Positions 48,663-64,000 of a stretch of DNA of 64,000 nt are shown here, piece by piece; within the stretch, counting starts at the first letter, position 1; every line of letters starts with the position of its first letter. Below the pieces are notes generated by a model. That model did no database searches. It had not been told where the DNA came from and saw only the letters and a program-made list of their open reading frames with translations. Source of the DNA: Thraustochytrium aureum (taxonomy: Eukaryota). The stretch is taken from the NCBI GenBank assembly GCA_012862495.1, contig BLSG01000014.1:1-64000 (forward strand), in the 5' to 3' direction. The translations under genes and the position numbers were made by a program.

Positions 48663-49529
48663 TTAGTCCTCTTCCTCCAACTCGGCTCCCAATTCGTCCT
48701 CGTCTTCGAGCTCTACTTCCTGCTCAAAGTCGCGCATCTTGGCGCCGAGCATGTAGTCTTCGCGAAGAGCGCCCCACCCGCCGCTGCCTGCAGAGCCTTC
48801 GACAGCCTCCTTTCGAGGAGCCGCGGTCTCGGCTCCTCTCTCTGCGCTCGCCTCTGTTGCGCCCTTCTTGAGAAGGTCCAGGAATGTCTCCTTGGTAGCT
48901 TCCTTGACGCCCTTTGCCGCCGTGGCTGGCGCGTCCTTGGCCGCGACCTTGCCGGCCACACGAGCCTTGGACTGGTGCTTTTGAATCGCGTTGAACAGCA
49001 CGACGACGCCGCGAGTGGCAACCCTGCGCAGCTGCCGCTCGAAGACGACGTTCTGCAGCTCGGGCTGCACAAGGCCTTGTTCTCGGCGTGCTCTTTTCTC
49101 GGCCCGAAGCCGCTTTGCCTCTGCCATCTCGCGTTTCGCCTTTTCGATTTCCTTCATCTCGCGTGTTTTGCGCTTGCGCAGCACCGTATCGCCTTCCTCG
49201 TCTTGGTCTTCCTCGCTCTCTTCTGCAGCGTCCTTTGCTCCAGCGCCTACGACCAGGTCTTTGAGGGTGCTTGCGAAGAAGGCCCCTTCGTCGTCGTTGG
49301 GGGCGTCCTCCTCCTCCTTCTCGTCCTCCTCGGCTTGTTCGATCTCATCCGCATCCACGCCATCGCTGCTCGAGGCATCTTCCTCTGCATCCTGAGCCCT
49401 GTCCTGCTCGACGTGGTCCTCCGCGGCGAGCTGCTCGGCGGGGTCAAGTTCAGACTCGGCCACCTTGGTCGCAGGTCGCCGCCTGTCCGCTGCCCTGGCC
49501 CTCGTCGCCGGCGCTACAGCGCGGCCTTC
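48663..49529 (-). CDS. RRP15: RRP15-like ribosome biogenesis protein, 5' end in gap
   Basis: ERQLRRVATRGVVVLFNAIQKHQ, KETFLDLLK, WGALREDYM, acidic tracts. Confidence 0.88.
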   Translation of the reverse strand, partial: EGRAVAPATRARAADRRRPATKVAESELDPAEQLAAEDHVEQDRAQDAEEDASSSDGVDADEIEQAEEDEKEEEDAPNDDEGAFFASTLKDLVVGAGAKDAAEESEEDQDEEGDTVLRKRKTREMKEIEKAKREMAEAKRLRAEKRARREQGLVQPELQNVVFERQLRRVATRGVVVLFNAIQKHQSKARVAGKVAAKDAPATAAKGVKEATKETFLDLLKKGATEASAERGAETAAPRKEAVEGSAGSGGWGALREDYMLGAKMRDFEQEVELEDEDELGAELEEED

Positions 49530-49965
49530 NNNNNNNNNNNNNNNNNNNNNNNNNNNNNNNNNNNNNNNNNNNNNNNNNNNNNNNNNNNNNNNNNNNNNNN
49601 NNNNNNNNNNNNNNNNNNNNNNNNNNNNNNNNNNNNNNNNNNNNNNNNNNNNNNNNNNNNNNNNNNNNNNNNNNNNNNNNNNNNNNNNNNNNNNNNNNNN
49701 NNNNNNNNNNNNNNNNNNNNNNNNNNNNNNNNNNNNNNNNNNNNNNNNNNNNNNNNNNNNNNNNNNNNNNNNNNNNNNNNNNNNNNNNNNNNNNNNNNNN
49801 NNNNNNNNNNNNNNNNNNNNNNNNNNNNNNNNNNNNNNNNNNNNNNNNNNNNNNNNNNNNNNNNNNNNNNNNNNNNNNNNNNNNNNNNNNNNNNNNNNNN
49901 NNNNNNNNNNNNNNNNNNNNNNNNNNNNNNNNNNNNNNNNNNNNNNNNNNNNNNNNNNNNNNNNN

Positions 49966-51072
49966 GGAAGAACATGTCTCGCTCGCCGGTCATGGAGAAG
50001 TAAAACTCCTCTGGCATGGCCTCTGCACACCACTGAGTCATCCACAGCGGTCCTGAAAAACGGTCGTCGCCGTCCTCGTCGGTGCGAGGGACGGAAAAGC
50101 AGGATTCTGACCCGGACGCATTGTAGAACAGGGCGGCCGCGCGGCGCAGCACCTGTGTGGCCTCGCTGGTCGAGGCTGCCGCAGCACACGCCGCCTTGAC
50201 CGGAAAGGCTGGCAGGAAAACGTCGGTGCGCCCGGTCAAGTAATTGGACCTGAACGGGAACTCGCCCATCGCCATCGTGTCGAAAGCGTTTGCCACCCAG
50301 AGAGCCACGTCGAGCGACGACACTGACGCGCTGCAGAGCCCAAAGGCCTGCGCGAGTTCATCTCCAGACCACGAACGGCGGAAAAACGCGGCGTACGCCG
50401 ATCGCACCTTGGCGGCGCAGGCTGGCCCAGCCGTTTCGGTCACGATGCGCCAGTAGCCATTGCCGCCGTCCTCGAAAAAGGAAAACCCTTGGCCCTCAAA
50501 CGCAAAAATCGGCGCGCTCGCCGCGACCGCTCCAGTGACTAGGGCAGGGTACTTGTACCGGAACCAGGCACTGAGCATTCCTCCGTAGCTCCCACCAAAC
50601 GCAACGACGGGCGAAGTGAAGGCCGAGCGGTTGGCTTGGAACGAGTACAAGAGCGCCGCGTAGTCAGCGAGGGCCTGGTCGTGTGTCAAAAACTCGAGCT
50701 GGCTGTTGTTCGCAACCTTGCTCTTTCCGTAGTACCTGTGCTCGGCGAACAAAACGGCGGCGCCAAAGCCAGCCGCGTTTTCCCACACAAGCCCTGTGGC
50801 CTGCACGTACAAGCTAACGTCTGCTTCGTTGCCAGTGTAGAAGAAGATGGGGCTTCCGTCCCGCCCCAGTGCGTCGTGTCCACAAAGTACCTCTGCGCAA
50901 ACGTCTCCCTCGCCCCGTCCCCAGACCCGAAGTGGTCCACGCGGTTTTCAAACCATCTCTCCTCTGCGCGCCAAGGGCCACCTCGTGCACCGCTAACTGT
51001 TGCGGTGGCCGATCCCGAACCAAGGAGCAGCGCCAGCGCAAGCAACGCCGAGTCCTTGATGCGGACCCGCAT
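49966..51072 (-). CDS. PRCP: Peptidase S28 (lysosomal Pro-X carboxypeptidase-like); frameshift near 50850; 3' end in gap
   Basis: Signal peptide, RVDHF, TFAQRY, corrected FFYTGNE, FAEHRYYGKS, QALADYA, FGGSYGGMLSAWFRYKYP, ASAP. Confidence 0.92.
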
Positions 51073-51342
51073 CGTGCCAGGACGTCCGCTGGGCTGCTCA
51101 AGTCGAGCAGCGAGTACCGACGGCAGCGCCTTTCCCTTCTGCCAAGCGAGTCTGCGAGTTTGTGCCTCAGAGACAATCGAAAAAGCAATTGATCGCGATC
51201 AAGGAATTGTTTCTTCACTTGGTGAGACGCGCGAGACGTCCGCGACAGCGACCACTTGCCGACAAGCTTCAAAAGTTCTTGATCAATCAGCGAGCCGCCT
51301 TCGTGGCGCAGCGAGACGTCCCTGTCGGTGCTGCCTGACCAA

Positions 51343-55561: not shown

Positions 55562-55929
55562 CCTGTGTCAACTGACGAGACAGACCACGAAGGAGCAGCG
55601 NNNNNNNNNNNNNNNNNNNNNNNNNNNNNNNNNNNNNNNNNNNNNNNNNNNNNNNNNNNNNNNNNNNNNNNNNNNNNNNNNNNNNNNNNNNNNNNNNNNN
55701 NNNNNNNNNNNNNNNNNNNNNNNNNNNNNNNNNNNNNNNNNNNNNNNNNNNNNNNNNNNCTGACGAGACAGACCACGAAGGAGCAGCGAGGTCGGCCAGC
55801 GCACGGCCCTGCCGAGCTGCGGCGCGTCGGACTGCGGCGCGTTGAGCTGCCAGTGTCTCATTTTCATTCGCGCGCTCTAGAGGTAGAGTACCCTACCGGT
55901 ACCGGTAGAGTATCTTGTAGTCGTTTAAA

Positions 55930-55961
55930 GGGTTAGGTTAGGTTAGGTAGGTTTAGGTTAG
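55930..55961 (+). repeat. Telomere-like (TTAGG)n interstitial tract in a divergent promoter
   Basis: GGGTTAGGTTAGGTTAGGTAGGTTTAGGTTAG. Confidence 0.75.
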
Positions 55962-56123: not shown

Positions 56124-59100
56124 ATGGAGGAGGACGACAGCATGGTAACGGCCTACGAGCGCCCCAGCAAGGAGCTGGAAAGCGTGATTGACGTCGAAGA
56201 GGAGCCGACGATGATCCAGGACCCAACGAGCCGCTGGGCAGTGGTGCTCAGGTACCGCGCTCTGCCGTTGACGATCGCAGACCTCAGCAAGACGCTGATC
56301 CGAACGGGAGGACTCTGTTTCGACCCCGAGCTTCGGGTCCCAGAGAAAACATTCTTCGCGGAAACGGTTCGACTGAAGCGGATATTCAACGGTGAGCATG
56401 CAGAGTCAAACGAGGCTGGCCCCGTTGAGGAGGACGAGGTCGCGATCGAAGGCTTGGACGCCTACACTGGGTTTCGGTACTTTCACTGGCACCCGGCTGG
56501 TCGCCGGTTGCTGTTCACAGGGCGCATCGAACGCGGCGGCGTTGAACGGCTCGACCTGCTGATGGTCTCGTTCGACCCGGAACAGGCCGCTCGCGCGCAG
56601 ACCATTGTGGCGCGCAAGATCGTCACAGAGAGGGTGTTCAACGCGATTGTGCACCGGCCAGCGACCTTTGTTGGAGACGGGTCCCACGTTTTGTGCTACT
56701 TTTGTCCCGCTAGCGCTGGACCGCCGCCCGGGGCCCCAAAGGTCCCCGCGGGACCGAATGTGAAGGAAAACGCGTCGGGCAAGAAGGCACCTGCGCGGAC
56801 TTACCAGCGCTTGATCGCCTCGCAGCACGACGAGGCACTCTTCGAGTACTACACGAAGGTAGACCTGGTCGTGCTTGCGCTGAGCGAGAACGATGACGCG
56901 CACTGCCTGCAGCAGACCCTAGCCGAAGGCGAGATGGTACGATTTGCCTCGCTTTCCCCCGACAAACGGCACATGCTTGTTTCTATCACACGAAAACCAT
57001 TTTCGTGGACGCTCCCGTACGGCAAGTTTGCAAAGTCGATTCAGGTCTGGACGCTGTCGCGCGAGCTGAGCGCGCACCCCGCACCTGCGACTCACGAGAA
57101 AGCACTGAGCAAACACCCTGCGTATCCAGAGCGCGGAGCGGTTGGCGCAGTTTCGTTTGAGCGGGCTGACGACAAGTACGAGCCGGTAGCTTTCACGCAC
57201 CCTGTCGTTGTAGACAACGACTGTTCGACGAAAAAGGGCGGCTGGGCTGACCCCCCGGCAGAGCAGGTCGACCAGACCGAGCTGGGGTCCCGCTTCTCGT
57301 ACCACGGCCAGATCTTTTTGGAGGGCGGCTTGCCGCGCAACCCGGTCGGCCGAACCGGCATGGTAGGTCGTGGGCTGCTTGGCAAGTGGGGCCCCAACCA
57401 CGCAGCTGACGCCATCGTCACGCGCACCTTCGAAGGCCGTCTGCAGATGGTCGCCATCCAGCGCAAAGACACTGGGGCTTGGGCCATCCCTGGCGGCATG
57501 GTGGACCCGGGGGAGTCGGTGCCCGCCGCCATGAAGCGCGAGTTCATGGAGGAGGCCGGGAACTTGAACCTTGGGCCGCACGAGGCCGAGGAGCACCGCG
57601 CAAAGGTGGACCGCCTGTTCGCCAGAGGGTTTGAAATATATCGAGGATACGTGGACGACCCGCGCAACACGGACAATGCGTGGATGGAGTCCTCGTTTGT
57701 TCATTTTCATTGCGATGACGACCTCGGGCGGTCCATTCCTCTCGAGGCCGGCGATGATGCAGGGGCGGTCTCGTGGCTCGATGTCGACGAGGACAACGCC
57801 GACTTTGCAAATCTGTACGCCAGTCACAAAGCCATGGTGCTCCGCGCCGCCGAGCGGTTGCGCGATGAGGCGGCAAGCCGGCGCCGGGAGGAGGCCGCTC
57901 TTGCTGTCAGCGTGGCCGAGCGGTCCACTGTGATCGAGGTACCTAGCGAGGAAGGGGTAGTCATCTCCTTTGACGCCCGCATGCGCGGGCCGCGCGGCTT
58001 AGCTGGCACTCGCAACGCCCGAGCACGCTCGAGTTTCGCTTCGCCCTGGACNNNNNNNNNNNNNNNNNNNNNNNNNNNNNNNNNNNNNNNNNNNNNNNNN
58101 NNNNNNNNNNNNNNNNNNNNNNNNNNNNNNNNNNNNNNNNNNNNNNNNNNNNNNNNNNNNNNNNNNNNNNNNNNNNNNNNNNNNNNNNNNNNNNNNNNNN
58201 NNNNNNNNNNNNNNNNNNNNGGACGGCGGGGACCCAAAGGCCGACGCTGCGATTGAGGACAAGGCGCGGGACGCCCTTTACCTCCTCGAACGCCCGTATG
58301 TGCTGGGGACAGGGATGGACCGTGACCCGGTCGGCGCGACCAACGTCGCGCTTGTTGTTCGGACAGAGTTTCGCATTTCCGGAGTGTCTTGGGCGCGCGC
58401 GGGGACGGGCCTTGGCTTTGTGTCAGAGCGTTGGCGAAAGACGCGCTGGACGCGGACGTGGGTCCTGCGCGAGGACCGCCCAGGCAAGTTTACCGCCACC
58501 AAGCTTTTCGACCGTTCCTTTGACGACGCCTATACGTCGCCTGGCTCGCTGCTCAGCTATCAAGACGCGAATGGGCTGCGCCACGTGCAGCAGAGCGCTG
58601 AGGAAGGTTTTTTTGACCTGCTGGGCAGCGGTGCGTCCCCAGCGGGCTCGCGACCATTCTATGACCGACTCTACGTCAGCGCGCCTCCGCTAAAGGCAGG
58701 CAAAGCTGAGAGTCAAGCCGCGTCTTCACTCACATGCAGGATCGAACGAGTTTGGCGCGCTACGCTAGACCCGAACGCCGACGAACACGAACTCGGCCTG
58801 GAGGCCTCGGGCGAGCCTGGCGGAGCGTTTACTCCTCCCGAAAAGCGGCGGCCCGTGTACGAGGTCTTTGACGATTTGGCTGTTGGGGGCCACTGGGCCC
58901 TGCTCCGGCGCGAGTCGAACGACGAGCCGCCCAACTTTTACTGGTACCACATTGCCTCTGGGCGCGAGTGGCAGATCTCGCGGTTCACGCACCCGCAGCC
59001 CGCTCTTGTCGGCGTGCGCAAAGAGCTCGTCAAGTACACGCGCGGCGACGGGCTTGAACTGAACGGCGACCTGTACCTCCCCAAAGGGTACGACCCAGAA

Positions 59101-60019
59101 ATCGATGGGCCACGGCGCTGCCTGCTCTGGGCGTACCCGCGCGAGTTCAAGGCCAAGTCGGTGGCTGGACAGGTCAAGACTTCCCCCTTCCGCTTCACGC
59201 GAACTTCTTGGTCGCGTCCTGTCACATGGGTTGTCAAGGGCTGGGTGGTGCTTGGGTTTGCCTCTCCGATCGTGGCTGAAGGCGCGGACGCGGAGCCAAA
59301 CGACACGTTTGTGGAGCAGGTGCAGCTCAATGCGCACGCTGCAGTCAAGCTTCTCGTGGACCGTGGCCTTGGCCGGGTCGGGGGGTTCGCGGTGGGCGGG
59401 CGACTCGTACGGGGCATTTATGACTGCGCACTTGTTGGCGCATACCGACTACTTTAGCGCGGGTATCGCGCGCTCGGGAGCCTACTTGCGCGCACTCACG
59501 CCCTTTGGGTTCCAGGCCGAGGAGCGGACCTTCTGGGAGGCGCCCGAAGCCTACGCGCGCTTGTCGCCGTTCTCCCACGTGCCGAGCATCGCCAAGGGCC
59601 GCGGGAAGCTGCTGCTTGTGCACGGCACGCACGACGAGAACAGCGGCACGTACCCGCTGCAATCCGAGCGCCTCTTTGACGCGCTCAAGGGCCACGGAGC
59701 GATCACGCGCCTTGTCTTGCTGCCCAATGAGGGCCATGGCTATCGGGCGCGAGAGTCTGTTCTTCACCTCCTGGCTGAGCAAGAAAAGTGGTTGGACAGG
59801 TTTGTCGCCGATCCGGCCGGCGACCTTTCGAGCACCTGCGACTTGGCCCCACTTGATCCTGCCCTAGCTTCTCTCAGTGTTGCGTCCGGGTCAGGATCAC
59901 GCGCGCCAGCACAGGCTGCTGCCATAGATGGGGTCGCTTCCCACCGCGTCAAGGCCTTGCTGGCGGCGTCCGGCGCAGTGCTCCTCCTCGTCGGCGTGTG
60001 GCGTCGAGCGCGTCTTTAG
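56124..60019 (+). CDS. S9 prolyl-oligopeptidase-family peptidase (glutamyl endopeptidase-like) with inserted NUDT9-type Nudix domain and C-terminal TM anchor; frameshifts near 58000 and 59400; gap 58032-58220
   Basis: Propeller motifs VPAGPNVKEN..ARTYQRLI..LFEYY, DGGDPK; catalytic domain LYLPKGYDP, WAYPREFK, EPNDTF, GG-D-SYGAFMTA, GIARSGAY, HGTHDENSGT, EGHGY. Confidence 0.9.
57090..57870 (+). other. NUDT9-type ADP-ribose pyrophosphatase domain inside the S9 peptidase
   Basis: PRNPVGRTGMVGRGLLGKWGPNHAAD, WAIPGGMVDPGE..KREFMEEA, YRGYVDDPRNTDNAWME, LEAGDDA, LYASH. Confidence 0.93.
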
Positions 60020-60300
60020 CGCCGTGGACAACGTGTTGCTCTTGCAGCTTAGAAGAAATAACGATCTCGTGCTATGTGGGGCGGGCGCCTCGATGTGGCC
60101 GGACGCTGAAGCACAAGCTCCCAGAGTCCCAACGCGCCGCCTTCGTTTTCGATTACCACCACCGCAGCAGCAGTAGCAGTTGGCAGGAGGGAGCAAGCAA
60201 GCAAGCGTGCGCGCGGCACCGCATGCCTGGTACCTTGCTGGCAAGCGAGGCGGCTACGTGTGCCGCTTGCTGAGGTGCGGGATTTCCAGTTGGTGTTGGA

Positions 60301-61644
60301 ATGGCGGCGTATGGGGCAGTCGAGACCGGCGAGGCCGCGCGCCTGCTGCCGCGGGCGGGCCAAGAGGACGTCGGCGGTCGCGCAAGCGCGCAGACAAGGT
60401 TCTTGCGAGACGCGGAGCGATCAGAGCGGCTCGTGTATGTAGAGCTCGTCTACGTGCGGTATTTGTCGGACGTGGTGACAACCGACATGACGTTCCGCGC
60501 TGCGATTGGGTTTGACATGGAATGGGCAGCGTCCGAAGAAGATGTGCAGGGGTGGGAAGCTGATCCCGTCGGCTTTGCACCGTCGCACATCCCGCGCTTC
60601 GAGTTTCCCAATGCCAAGGAGATCGACCTCGAGCGCCGCACATGGCAGAACGGCAACTGCTTCAAGATCAACGTGAAGGAAGACCCAGTGACAGGGACGG
60701 AGACCCGCTTTTGCTTTCTGCGAACGCTAGCTGTTGGCGTGTTCATGGCGCGGTTCGACTTGCACGCCTTTCCGTTTGACTCGCAGACCCTGCGCGTCGT
60801 CATGGACCTCACCTTTTGCGAGATCAGGCAGTCCATGTTTGTTCCGCCGTTCGCGATCATGCAACGCGGGGCTGGAAGCGCGCCCAATACAAGCGTAGTA
60901 ACGGTAAATCGCGAGTTTTCTGCTCTGAGCGATTTCGAGCTCGAGCGGTGCCTGTGCGAGTTTGCGAGCCGGACGGCAGACACGGACAAGCATTTGCCTG
61001 ACGACGAGGCGTTTCGCTGGAGCCAGGTTGTGGTGCACTTTCAGCTCGTGCGCAAGTGGGAGGGATACATCGGCCGCCTCGCTTTGCTGGCTTTTCTTCT
61101 CTCGCTGACGAGCCTCGCAGCATTCGGGTTTGATGTCGAGGATGCTTTGCCTGACCGGGCGGGGTACCTGATGAACCTCGTCCTTGCGAACGTAGCGTTC
61201 CAGTTCATCCTCAACGATGTGCTCCCGCCCGTGCCGTATTTGACTACGCTGGACAAGTACTGCCTTGCTCTCTTTGTGCTCACGGTGCTGCAGCTTTGCC
61301 TTACGACCCTGTACGGCAACCTCGATTGGCCGCCTGATACGGTGCGCCACTTTGATTTGCACGTGGCGATGCCCGCGTTTACACTGCTGCTGGTCGCGTG
61401 CCAGCTCGGATTTGTTCGCCTGGCCGTTGTGTCTCGTCGCGGAGAGGTCGCAAAACTCGATATGGGCGTCCTTGAACTGCGTCAAGAACAGGCCGGGCGG
61501 TCTGGACGGCACGCGTCGCATGCGATTCGGCTCTTGGGGCGATCGATGCTCGACGAGGCCGCCAGAGCAGCAACGCGAGCGGAGAACGCTTTTGTGACGT
61601 TTGCGAGCCAGAGCTGCTTTCGGAAGCCGCCGAGTGACAGATGA
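60301..61644 (+). CDS. Cys-less (Pro-loop) pentameric ligand-gated ion channel-like subunit
   Basis: PRFEFPNA, FDLHAFPFDSQTL loop, four C-terminal TM helices with DRAGY, LPPVPYLTTLDKY. Confidence 0.82.
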   Translation: MAAYGAVETGEAARLLPRAGQEDVGGRASAQTRFLRDAERSERLVYVELVYVRYLSDVVTTDMTFRAAIGFDMEWAASEEDVQGWEADPVGFAPSHIPRFEFPNAKEIDLERRTWQNGNCFKINVKEDPVTGTETRFCFLRTLAVGVFMARFDLHAFPFDSQTLRVVMDLTFCEIRQSMFVPPFAIMQRGAGSAPNTSVVTVNREFSALSDFELERCLCEFASRTADTDKHLPDDEAFRWSQVVVHFQLVRKWEGYIGRLALLAFLLSLTSLAAFGFDVEDALPDRAGYLMNLVLANVAFQFILNDVLPPVPYLTTLDKYCLALFVLTVLQLCLTTLYGNLDWPPDTVRHFDLHVAMPAFTLLLVACQLGFVRLAVVSRRGEVAKLDMGVLELRQEQAGRSGRHASHAIRLLGRSMLDEAARAATRAENAFVTFASQSCFRKPPSDR

Positions 61645-61832: not shown

Positions 61833-63738
61833 CTATGACTGCGCCGCAAACACAGGTTGGGGTCCCACAGACTCGACCGAGACACAGTCCGCCAAACCCG
61901 CAGCCCCACCAAACTCGTTCGCGGAGTCCACTTGGTCGTCGTGCGCATCGGCCTCCACGGGAAGCGCAAAGTCGTCCGGCAAGTCGGTGTTGATGAACGA
62001 GATGCCAAGCTCTGACAAGCGCTGCGCCGTCTCAACGTTGTCAGGATCTGAGGCGTAGCCCCAAACCCCGATTGTGTAAGTCTCCGCCAGCTCGCGCACC
62101 AATTTCGCACAGGCAGAGTTGGGCTGCACCATCGCCGGGTGATACTGCATGTAGACGCCATCCAAGCAGCTGGACCCTTGCTCGACGTAACCCAAAATGT
62201 CAGCGCGCAGCTCGTCGCTCGTGCGCCCGTCCCAGTCCACGGGCATCTCAATCGCGTTGTCGGGCTCTGCGGCGTCGCGCGTCAGGAACATAATCTTTGG
62301 CGCCATCGCAGGGTTGAGCTCCCCAAAGTGCTCTTGAAAAAAGTTGTTAAAAGTTGTGGATGATGTACAGGTCGAAGCTCATCACCACGGCCACTCGAGA
62401 CAGGAGCGTCATGTTCTCGCTCATGAGTCGACAGAGCGCAGCCGCCACCTCGGCGCCGTCGGCGCCCGACTTAATCTCGATGACGAGCTTGGCAGCGGGC
62501 CCTGCGCGCGTTGCTGTGCGGAGCACGTCTTCGAGCAGCGGGGCCGAGGTACCGTTCTTGAGCGGGAGCGCATAGAGCTCTTCGAAAGTGAGTTTGGTGA
62601 CCGGCTGGAACGCTGAGGTGTGCCCAGGGTCGCGCGCGAGGCGGTGCAAGTCGTTGTCATGGCAGAGCACGATTCGGCCGTCCAGCGTCAGCGTGATATC
62701 GCACTCGCAATATCGCAGACCAGACGCCCACGACTGCTCATATGCGGTTATGGTGTTCTCCAGTGGGCGGTGAAGAAGGTCCTCCTTGCTATGAAACCCG
62801 CGGTGGCTCACCAGCTTGGCGCGCAGCTCGCTGTCGACCTGGTTGATCATGTTGCAGAGCAGGTCGAACGGGCTTGGTCCCGAGCTCGTGCTACTGTTGC
62901 TCTTGGTGTGACGCGGCGCCCCGCTGCGCGGAGCAACCGTCTGGTTGGCGCTAGGGTGGCGAGCGGATGACCCGGGCACGCTGGCGCTGGTGTTGGGCCG
63001 GGTCTCCTCGGGGACAGCGCAATCGGCGGCGCTCGAGCTAGGCTGCGATGAGCGCCCCTTGCCGAGCCTCACCTCGCCAGAGGACTTGCTTTCAAAGTCA
63101 GCGCGGTCTGTATCGTCGCCGTACAAGTCCTCCTCACTAGCGCTCGGGGAGCACCGAACGAGGCACTCGCGGATCATGTCGCGCAGCTTGGCTGCAAAGT
63201 CGGTGCTCACGCCGCTCGCCATCGGCGACATTGCCAACTCGACGTAGAGCGCCGACGCGGTCGCGGGGCAGACGTACTTTTCCAGCTTCTTCGCGAGCTT
63301 GCGCAGCGCCTCCACGTTCAGCAACCCGAAAACGCGCCGCTGCTCGAACAGCGGGAGAACCGACGCCTGCAGCTCGGGGGCGTCGTTGTCCGCGGCGTCA
63401 TCGTAAAAGCTGTCGCGGCGTTCGCTGAGCGTCTCGCCAAACATGAACGATTCGCCGTAGCCGCGGTTCGCCGACTTGCACAGCCCAGGCAGCTGCAACG
63501 CGACCTTGCGCGCCAGCGAGTTGGTCTCGCGGAGGCTGAAGAGCGCAGCGACCGCCTCGCGGGAGATCATGTCAAAGTGCGCCGAGGACTTGGCCAGCTC
63601 GCCTCGCCACCTCGCCGAGAACGCCTTGGCGTTCGTCCCAGGGTTGCTCGCCAGGTCGCGGAGCCCGTTAAAGTCGACGTACAGCTCCTCCCACCCGCTC
63701 ACGCGGGAGGTGCTCAGGTGCGCCCCAAACCGCACCAT
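61833..63738 (-). CDS. SPX-domain glycerophosphodiester phosphodiesterase (frameshift in A-run near 62340)
   Basis: SPX start MVRFGAHL..WEELYVDF and LNVEALRKLAKKLEK; GDPD motifs SHRGF, PLENT, ECDI, CHD, VIEIK, VMSF, INTD. Confidence 0.85.
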
Positions 63739-64000
63739 ATTCCTTACCGCCCGGGTCGAGCCCGTCCGCGGCGCCTCGCGAAGGGTTTCTGCTGCTCCAC
63801 AAAAGCAGTTTGTCGACTGGGCCGCTCTGATCAGACCTGCCTTGTCACCCAGAACTGGCAGCCTCCCCAGCCAAACGAGCGCTCTGCAGCCTGGTCGGTG
63901 GGTCGGTCACCTTGCCTGCGCGGCCCAGCTCTACGACCAACTCAGCCGCCACCGGTCTGCGCTGCCACAAACTCTCAGCGCCGCCAGCCTCGTCGCGCGC

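What the first reader, a model, noticed from the sequence alone, without database searches (positions are those of the whole stretch)
56124..60019. S9 glutamyl-endopeptidase-like protease with an intact NUDT9 ADP-ribose hydrolase inserted in its beta-propeller, tail-anchored
Seen: in one gap-free, stop-free frame the peptidase propeller sequence ...PFSWTLPYGKFAKSIQVWT is followed by about 260 aa of NUDT9-type sequence (57090-57870) and a helical linker, then resumes with TVIEVPSEEGVVISFDARMRGPRG. Known: in plant chloroplast glutamyl endopeptidase (S9D) and its bacterial relatives these two propeller segments are, as I recall them, nearly adjacent, so this is a domain insertion, not an end-to-end fusion. 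The Nudix box keeps REF.EE as in active NUDT9, unlike the RIL of the enzymatically dead human TRPM2 domain. The Ser-Asp-His triad motifs are present. The protein ends in a hydrophobic helix plus basic tail (ALLAASGAVLLLVGVWRRARL). Inference: a membrane-tethered bifunctional enzyme. ADP-ribose might gate substrate entry through the propeller, or the enzyme might clear Glu-ADP-ribosylated peptides, since S9D cuts after Glu and Glu is an ADP-ribose acceptor. I know of no description of this architecture but cannot search.
Basis: partly seen in the sequence, partly recalled or inferred. Interest (0 to 1): 0.88.

Follow-up and report, generated by a model that had tools for sequence, protein, structure and literature searches.

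The report
Peptidase with built-in ADP-ribose hydrolase
Marine thraustochytrid protists share one gene in which a complete ADP-ribose-splitting enzyme is inserted inside a peptide-cutting enzyme; the two likely work independently, and a conserved tail signal is predicted to send the protein to the peroxisome membrane.

Summary
The insertion is real. A complete NUDT9 domain sits inside the beta-propeller of a CGEP/S9D peptidase. Seven orthologues at 50-63% identity share it; the named ones are Hondaea, Thraustochytrium and Mucochytrium, the last two from transcriptomes. Both modules form one clade with broadly matching branching, which fits a single old insertion. Both active sites keep their catalytic residues.

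New here: all 8 of 8 fusions end in a short hydrophobic helix plus a PTS1-type tripeptide, and several unfused eukaryote-like S9Ds end in SKL, so peroxisomal targeting is likely. The insert lies in a propeller turn predicted to face away from the active site. Gating by ADP-ribose and clearing of Glu-ADP-ribosylated peptides are therefore unsupported. The proteins are in databases under automatic names; two paper searches found no description. New variant, moderate interest.

The parts
56124..57056 (+). S9D N-terminal segment and propeller blades 1 to 4C; no signal or transit peptide
   Evidence: aa 3-312 match CGEP chain 46-334, E 1.4e-21; orthologues start 3-14 aa before the same Y-x-R-P-S motif
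56706..56807 (+). equivalent of the CGEP dimerisation loop (B-C loop of blade 3 in the model)
   Evidence: alignment; PMC13181208 section 2.3; coordinates
57060..57923 (+). inserted NUDT9 domain (cap + Nudix core) with short linkers, in the C-D turn of blade 4
   Evidence: model residues 315-580 of orthologue P0006 align to 1qvj at Z 29.2, rmsd 2.6, 255 aligned
57492..57554 (+). Nudix box ending REFMEE, the same six residues as in active srTRPM2
57654..57761 (+). DDPRNTD (terminal ribose and phosphate binding) and AGDDA (catalytic base Asp)
   Evidence: equivalents of srTRPM2 D1426, R1428, D1460
57924..58047 (+). blade 4 strand D and start of blade 5; the window lacks one base near 57998
   Evidence: extra base in contigs of X1, X2, X3; tblastn frames
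58052..58220 (.). 169-N scaffold gap that stands for no missing sequence (GGAC duplicated on both sides)
   Evidence: joint 58047-58221 in X2 and X3, weakly X1; flanks printed
58221..59401 (+). propeller blades 5-8 and first half of the catalytic domain, with hinge-loop WAYP at 59128-59139
59395..59425 (+). S9D nucleophile motif GGHSYGAFMT, interrupted in the window by one extra base at 59402
   Evidence: one X1 contig lacks the base; Ser motif present in 7 of 7 orthologues
59403..59803 (+). rest of the alpha/beta-hydrolase domain with catalytic Asp (59630-59641) and His (59729-59743)
   Evidence: PF00326 E 5.5e-17; CGEP alignment
59954..60001 (+). 16-residue uncharged hydrophobic helix, transmembrane-like
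60002..60019 (+). basic end RRARL and stop; ARL is a PTS1-type tripeptide
   Evidence: 8 of 8 fusions end [SA][KR][LI]; controls 0 of 94, 0 of 113, 1 of 120

Best explanation
This is a conserved thraustochytrid gene for one protein in which a whole NUDT9 domain is inserted in the propeller of an S9D peptidase; it likely acts as two independent housekeeping hydrolases, predicted to be delivered to the peroxisome membrane by a hydrophobic helix plus PTS1 tail. Shown: the architecture, its conservation, intact catalytic residues, no N-terminal targeting peptide, and the tail motif. Inferred steps: (1) the peptidase cuts short peptides after Glu as CGEP does, with substrate entering by the side opening; (2) the NUDT9 domain, on the outer propeller face, hydrolyses free ADP-ribose to AMP and ribose-5-phosphate with Mg2+; (3) PEX5 reads the C-terminal tripeptide and the helix holds the protein at the peroxisomal membrane (matrix side somewhat more likely than cytosolic side); (4) the fusion persists because it gives NUDT9 the peptidase's address, and it is internal because the C-terminus must stay free for targeting.
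For: Architecture. Model of orthologue P0006: pLDDT 91.1, pTM 0.89, strands 263-270, 276-282, 297-304, then the insert, then 587-596; it aligns end to end with S9 peptidases (5yp4 Z 24.9, rmsd 4.1, 606 aligned) and with NUDT9. Catalytic residues: S9D Ser/Asp/His motifs and hinge WAYP in 8 of 8 (window by read-through); Nudix REFxEE and DDPRNTD in 8 of 8; catalytic-base Asp in 7 of 8 (Glu in P0220). Conservation within fusions: NUDT9 core 0.76, catalytic domain 0.82, linkers 0.37-0.62. One origin: fusion clade support 99 for the peptidase part and 97 for the insert (quick trees). Tail: ARL, AKL, SRL, SKI, AKL, SRI, SRL, ARL in 8 of 8 although the preceding 27 residues are only 15% identical; chance 0.003 per protein. 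Unfused relatives: 6 of 23 in the eukaryote-like clade end PTS1-like against 3 of 113 outside (Fisher p 7.5e-4, rows not independent); Perkinsus marinus P0480 ends SKL. Precedent for uncoupled NUDT9 catalysis in a fusion: sea-anemone TRPM2 (PMC6461439, passages).
Against: No activity or location has been measured. A hydrophobic helix ending 0-7 residues before the tripeptide is unlike typical polar PTS1 context (recalled); a basic end also fits an ordinary tail anchor. The nearest unfused relative P0106 has the helix but no PTS1. Whole-chain pTM of 0.87-0.89 suggests the insert has a defined position, which leaves coupling open. The face on which the insert lies is inferred from strand order, not measured on coordinates. 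Glu specificity is transferred from CGEP, whose own pocket assignment the authors call not definitive (PMC13181208 discussion). The window's catalytic motif is restored by one low-depth contig only. No source of ADP-ribose inside thraustochytrid peroxisomes was shown.
Confidence: 0.5

Rival explanations
1. Same two independent enzymes, but an ordinary tail-anchored protein facing the cytosol on mitochondria, ER or peroxisomes; the tripeptide is a relic or only part of the basic tail.
For: 12-20-residue uncharged helix of low hydrophobic moment with 1-3 basic and no acidic residues after it in 8 of 8; unfused P0106 has such a tail without PTS1; 5 of 120 stand-alone NUDT9 hits also have hydrophobic tails.
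Against: A tail anchor does not need Ser/Ala at -3 and Leu/Ile at the end, yet 8 of 8 (and partial P0346) keep both in varied forms.
Confidence: 0.28
2. ADP-ribose-regulated peptidase: binding or hydrolysis at the insert shifts the open/closed state of the cap, tying peptide turnover to NAD breakdown.
For: The insert is attached to the mobile cap domain; high pTM; neighbouring outer loops of blades 1 and 5 are longer in fusions; srTRPM2 is a precedent for a NUDT9 domain in a regulated protein (PMC11479946, abstract and passages).
Against: Outer-face position inferred; CGEP is gated by a side opening and hinge loop; 0 of 51 fusion-specific invariant positions fall inside the insert and its C-linker is the least conserved part.
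Confidence: 0.12
3. Coupled disposal of ADP-ribosylated peptides: the Nudix domain trims Glu-linked ADP-ribose and the peptidase degrades the peptide.
For: A review lists NUDT9 as a partial eraser of poly-ADP-ribose (PMC6414514, passages); NUDT9 domains occur fused to ADP-ribosyltransferase domains elsewhere.
Against: Residues that anchor the free terminal ribose are conserved; bacterial ADPRases do not act on protein-linked ADP-ribose (PMC4680915, passages; NUDT9 itself not tested there); the two sites are inferred to be on opposite sides of the propeller.
Confidence: 0.06
4. The family is real but the window's copy is a recent pseudogene.
For: The window has an extra base in the catalytic motif; only one contig contradicts it.
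Against: The other two defects are corrected in 2-3 runs; the read-through has no stop in 1240 codons; two neighbouring genes are also split across frames, as expected of an error-prone assembly.
Confidence: 0.04

Closest known systems
Chloroplast glutamyl endopeptidase CGEP (MEROPS S9D; PDB 10EO-10EU; PMC13181208)
   Same: GGHSYGAFMT nucleophile motif, Asp and His, hinge-loop W-x-Y-P, dimerisation loop, eight-bladed cap.
   Different: About 280-aa NUDT9 insert at the turn equal to CGEP residues about 386-392; no transit peptide; hydrophobic helix plus PTS1-type end instead of the self-cleaved acidic tail (no Glu in the window's linker); found in a lineage without plastids (recalled), outside the range the paper gives.
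Human NUDT9 ADP-ribose pyrophosphatase (PDB 1Q33, 1QVJ)
   Same: Cap plus Nudix core, Z 29.2, rmsd 2.6, 46% identity over 255 residues for orthologue P0006; canonical Nudix box.
   Different: Internal domain of a peptidase; no mitochondrial presequence, so the GenBank name 'mitochondrial' for GBG26202.1 looks like transferred annotation.
TRPM2 chanzymes of Salpingoeca and Nematostella (NUDT9-H domain)
   Same: Active-type NUDT9 domain in a larger protein; eight of the nine srTRPM2 binding and catalytic residues named in PMC11479946 are kept, F1372 being Met as in human NUDT9.
   Different: C-terminal appendage of an ion channel with a separate MHR1/2 ADP-ribose sensor; here an internal insert and no second sensor domain detected.
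Unfused eukaryote-like S9D peptidases with C-terminal SKL (P0361, P0376, P0392, Perkinsus P0480)
   Same: Same peptidase family and PTS1-type end.
   Different: No insert and no hydrophobic helix; themselves uncharacterised.

Membership tests
Peptidase S9D (CGEP) | GGHSYGAFMT motif around the catalytic Ser | tested here: met
   Exact in 6 of 7 orthologues and GGHSYGGFMT in P0004; in the window only after the read-supported removal of one base
Peptidase S9D (CGEP) | Ser-Asp-His triad in that order | tested here: met
   Aligned to CGEP S781, D855, H889; motifs in 8 of 8
Peptidase S9D (CGEP) | Eight-bladed propeller cap plus alpha/beta hydrolase | tested here: met
   Model of P0006, blades counted from DSSP strands; end-to-end match to S9B/C structures, Z about 25
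Peptidase S9D (CGEP) | Hinge-loop W689/Y691/P692 | tested here: met
   WAYP in 8 of 8
Peptidase S9D (CGEP) | Cleavage after Glu; homodimer | not testable with these tools
   Needs assay; W825 and F837 equivalents kept, V832 is Ala in the window
NUDT9 ADP-ribose pyrophosphatase | Cap domain plus Nudix core | tested here: met
   PF25969 and PF00293 on orthologues; structural match to 1qvj
NUDT9 ADP-ribose pyrophosphatase | Canonical Nudix box and catalytic base | tested here: met
   REFxEE 8 of 8; Asp base 7 of 8, Glu in P0220
NUDT9 ADP-ribose pyrophosphatase | Mg2+-dependent hydrolysis of ADP-ribose | not testable with these tools
   Needs assay
PTS1 peroxisomal proteins | C-terminal (S/A/C)(K/R/H)(L/M/I) tripeptide | tested here: met
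   8 of 8 under the pattern used; 6 of 8 end in Leu and fit the stricter consensus quoted in PMC8955342; allowing Ile/Met is recalled
PTS1 peroxisomal proteins | Exposed polar residues upstream of the tripeptide; PEX5-dependent import | tested here: inconclusive
   Upstream is a hydrophobic helix; import cannot be tested here
Tail-anchored membrane proteins | Single C-terminal hydrophobic helix, no signal peptide | tested here: met
   Tail Kyte-Doolittle 1.63-2.37 over 17 residues, non-amphipathic; shortest is 12 residues (P0103); no dedicated membrane-topology predictor was run

The most novel reading that the evidence does not exclude
An ADP-ribose-sensing protease on peroxisomes: the NUDT9 domain docked on the mobile cap reports NAD breakdown and tunes peptide cleavage, a protease counterpart of the TRPM2 chanzyme, targeted by a combined membrane-helix plus PTS1 signal that uses PEX5 to place a membrane-anchored protein.
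Probability: 0.1. Interest if true: 0.82.

Novelty: new variant of a known kind. Interest (0 to 1): 0.52.

Why it matters
It extends S9D peptidases, described from plastids and bacteria, to heterotrophic stramenopiles and points to an unreported peroxisomal branch of the family. It is a clean natural case of a 280-residue enzyme grafted into a propeller turn and kept under selection across a whole order. It also offers a testable helix-plus-PTS1 targeting signal in genetically tractable oil-producing protists. If coupling were found it would be the first ADP-ribose-controlled protease known to me (recalled, not searched as such).

Tried and rejected
No whole genome is held for the window, so paralogues, a stand-alone NUDT9 and PEX5 could not be sought. 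Runs: no RNA holder listed; X2 and X3 are only guessed RNA and are used as contigs, not as expression evidence. Alignment A2 put the bacterial propeller on the insert; its model was set aside and A5 was used. The complex-folding test of insert against propeller was not available and the protein atlas did not complete. Viral contigs: no match to six patterns. NCBIfam gave nothing above a curated cut-off. CGEP was not among the Foldseek or VIA rows shown. Earlier findings of the scan: none. Recent import of the insert rejected: GC3 0.76 against 0.73-0.81 for the host parts. Conserved self-cleavage at a tail Glu rejected: none in the window's linker. A paper search for a precedent of helix-plus-PTS1 targeting found none. 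Trees are quick or FastTree runs; 7 unfused rows were skipped and 4 of 149; P0106 and P0161 are long branches; no plant CGEP sequence was in the trees, so the donor of the peptidase is not settled.
Full report
What the window is. A gene-dense eukaryotic scaffold with 13 N gaps; neighbours are an S28 peptidase, an SNF2 helicase and two GDPD genes. No whole genome is held. The closest named relatives of the gene are from Hondaea fermentalgiana, Thraustochytrium sp. LLF1b and Mucochytrium quahogii, all Thraustochytrida, so the window is taken to be thraustochytrid (inference).

The observation. The frame 56124-58051 has no stop and no N. It matches CGEP over residues 3-312 and NUDT9-type domains over 346-587, and the downstream pieces continue CGEP. 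In an alignment of 8 fusion rows and 42 unfused S9D proteins, the anchors either side of the insert are 21 residues apart in 40 of 42 unfused rows, 32 and 36 in two eukaryote-like rows, and 274-305 in 7 of 8 fusion rows. Through an unfused relative the site maps to the turn at CGEP chain 332-338, about residues 386-392 (offset 54 from S781).

The breaks. Contigs of X1, X2 and X3 have one more base behind 57998; X2 and X3 (and X1 with a short side) join 58047 to 58221; one X1 contig lacks the base at 59402. A second laying found no other contig over 59402, so that correction rests on one contig of depth 4.7 plus the intact motif in 7 of 7 orthologues. Read through accordingly, the gene is 3723 bases, 1240 residues, without a stop. 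The upstream junction is bridged in 3 of 4 runs and position 57870 in 4 of 4; no contig spans the whole insert, and X1 may be the source. Two neighbouring genes are also split across frames. Assembly error is the simplest reading.

Distribution. 4 of 98 long hits carried both Pfam domains; a full-length search gave 7 among the best 120 of 2393. An exhaustive HMMER search of 1.84 billion representatives gave 4 two-module proteins among the best 150 of 6619, with 7 NUDT9-only and 139 without NUDT9; one of these, P0346, is a C-terminal fragment inside the fusion clade. Identity to the window is 50-63%. P0007 and P0220 come from transcriptome sets, so the insert is not spliced out there. Locus L001 holds a whole gene with an apparent 51-base GT-AG intron. 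The peptidase parts form one clade (99) sister to unfused P0106, and the inserts form one clade (97); both place P0103 first and group P0004, P0005 and P0006 (quick trees). In a FastTree of 145 catalytic domains the fusions sit in a 32-row clade (91) that includes Galdieria, which weakly favours a eukaryotic S9D as host.

Structure. The model of orthologue P0006 from the checked alignment A5 has pLDDT 91.1 and pTM 0.89. Three strands of blade 4 precede the insert and the fourth follows it, so the insert is in a C-D turn. The CGEP dimerisation loop, which contacts a catalytic domain (PMC13181208 section 2.3), is a B-C loop in the model; since strand connections alternate faces in a propeller (established geometry), the insert should face away from the catalytic domain. 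The model matches NUDT9 (Z 29.2) and, end to end, S9 peptidases (Z about 25).

Active sites. S9D Ser, Asp, His and hinge WAYP motifs are in 8 of 8; so are REFxEE and DDPRNTD; the catalytic-base Asp is in 7 of 8. Of nine srTRPM2 residues named in PMC11479946 (passages), eight are kept in the window. The NUDT9 core is nearly as conserved as the catalytic domain, the C-linker is the least conserved part, and none of 51 fusion-specific invariant positions lies in the insert.

The tail. All 8 fusions end in a 12-20-residue uncharged, non-amphipathic helix and a PTS1-type tripeptide in five different forms, while the 27 residues before are 15% identical. Controls: 0 of 94 long NUDT9 proteins, 0 of 113 unfused S9D, 1 of 120 short NUDT9. 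In the wider set, 6 of 23 unfused members of the eukaryote-like clade end PTS1-like against 3 of 113 outside, four of all these in SKL, one from Perkinsus. No orthologue with a complete start has an N-terminal leader. Against: P0106 has the helix without the tripeptide, and a hydrophobic helix next to a PTS1 is atypical (recalled); no precedent was found.

Mechanism. Most likely (0.5): two independent hydrolases on one chain at the peroxisomal membrane, one cutting short Glu peptides and one clearing free ADP-ribose; the fusion lends NUDT9 an address. Next (0.28): the same enzymes on an ordinary cytosol-facing tail anchor. ADP-ribose gating (0.12) is weakened by CGEP's side entry and packed propeller core and by uncoupled catalysis in sea-anemone TRPM2, but high pTM leaves it open. 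Disposal of ADP-ribosylated peptides (0.06) is weakened by the conserved terminal-ribose residues, though a review lists NUDT9 as acting on poly-ADP-ribose.

Literature seen. PMC13181208: parts 1-4 of 6 (abstract to methods). PMC11479946, PMC6461439, PMC6414514, PMC4680915, PMC8955342, PMC8546548, PMC7106852, PMC12178909, PMC8172628: passages only. Other papers: search listings only. No supplements were opened; those of the CGEP papers may list further lineages. The 2020 CGEP phylogeny paper was not read. Searches for NUDT9 + thraustochytrid and Nudix + prolyl oligopeptidase + propeller returned 0 papers; the library lacks most subscription journals.

Verdict. A real, lineage-wide domain insertion of two known enzymes, catalogued automatically but apparently undescribed, with an overlooked peroxisome-type tail. 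New variant of a known kind; interest 0.52.

Noticed in passing
P0361, P0363, P0366, P0376, P0382, P0392, P0437, P0480: Unfused eukaryote-like S9D peptidases with PTS1-type ends; SKL is kept in 14 of 15 listed members of each of two clusters. Suggests an undescribed peroxisomal S9D group.
   Followed up: partly
one search hits P0029, P0035, P0040, P0042, P0049, P0078, P0083, P0087: NUDT9 is a promiscuous module: precomputed Pfam sets pair it with ADP-ribosyltransferase, PF02714 membrane, nucleoside hydrolase, phage portal or Mu-F and a multi-enzyme NAD-salvage protein (family names recalled from accessions).
   Followed up: no
P0245, P0251, P0260, P0304, P0305: Stand-alone NUDT9 proteins with a C-terminal hydrophobic helix, possible tail-anchored ADP-ribose hydrolases in other protists.
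   Followed up: partly
window 55929-55961: Short degenerate TTAGG/TTAGGG telomere-like tract about 160 bases upstream of the start codon; very deep short contigs map there.
   Followed up: no
window 49514-51198 (-) and 61833-63906 (-): S28 peptidase and GDPD genes split across reading frames without a gap between the pieces, probably further assembly errors.
   Followed up: partly
window 60274-61644 (+): Intronless 456-aa frame with a weak ligand-gated ion channel membrane match (PF02932, E 0.0057, below cut-off), directly downstream.
   Followed up: no
L001 606-656: Apparent 51-base in-frame GT-AG intron with a stop, which explains why P0103 is truncated at its start.
   Followed up: yes
fusion family, P0006 residues about 797-826 and 1154-1156: A propeller loop insertion shared with P0106 and P0161 but absent in bacterial S9D, and a Cys kept in the linker before the tail in 7 of 8 fusions.
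   Followed up: no
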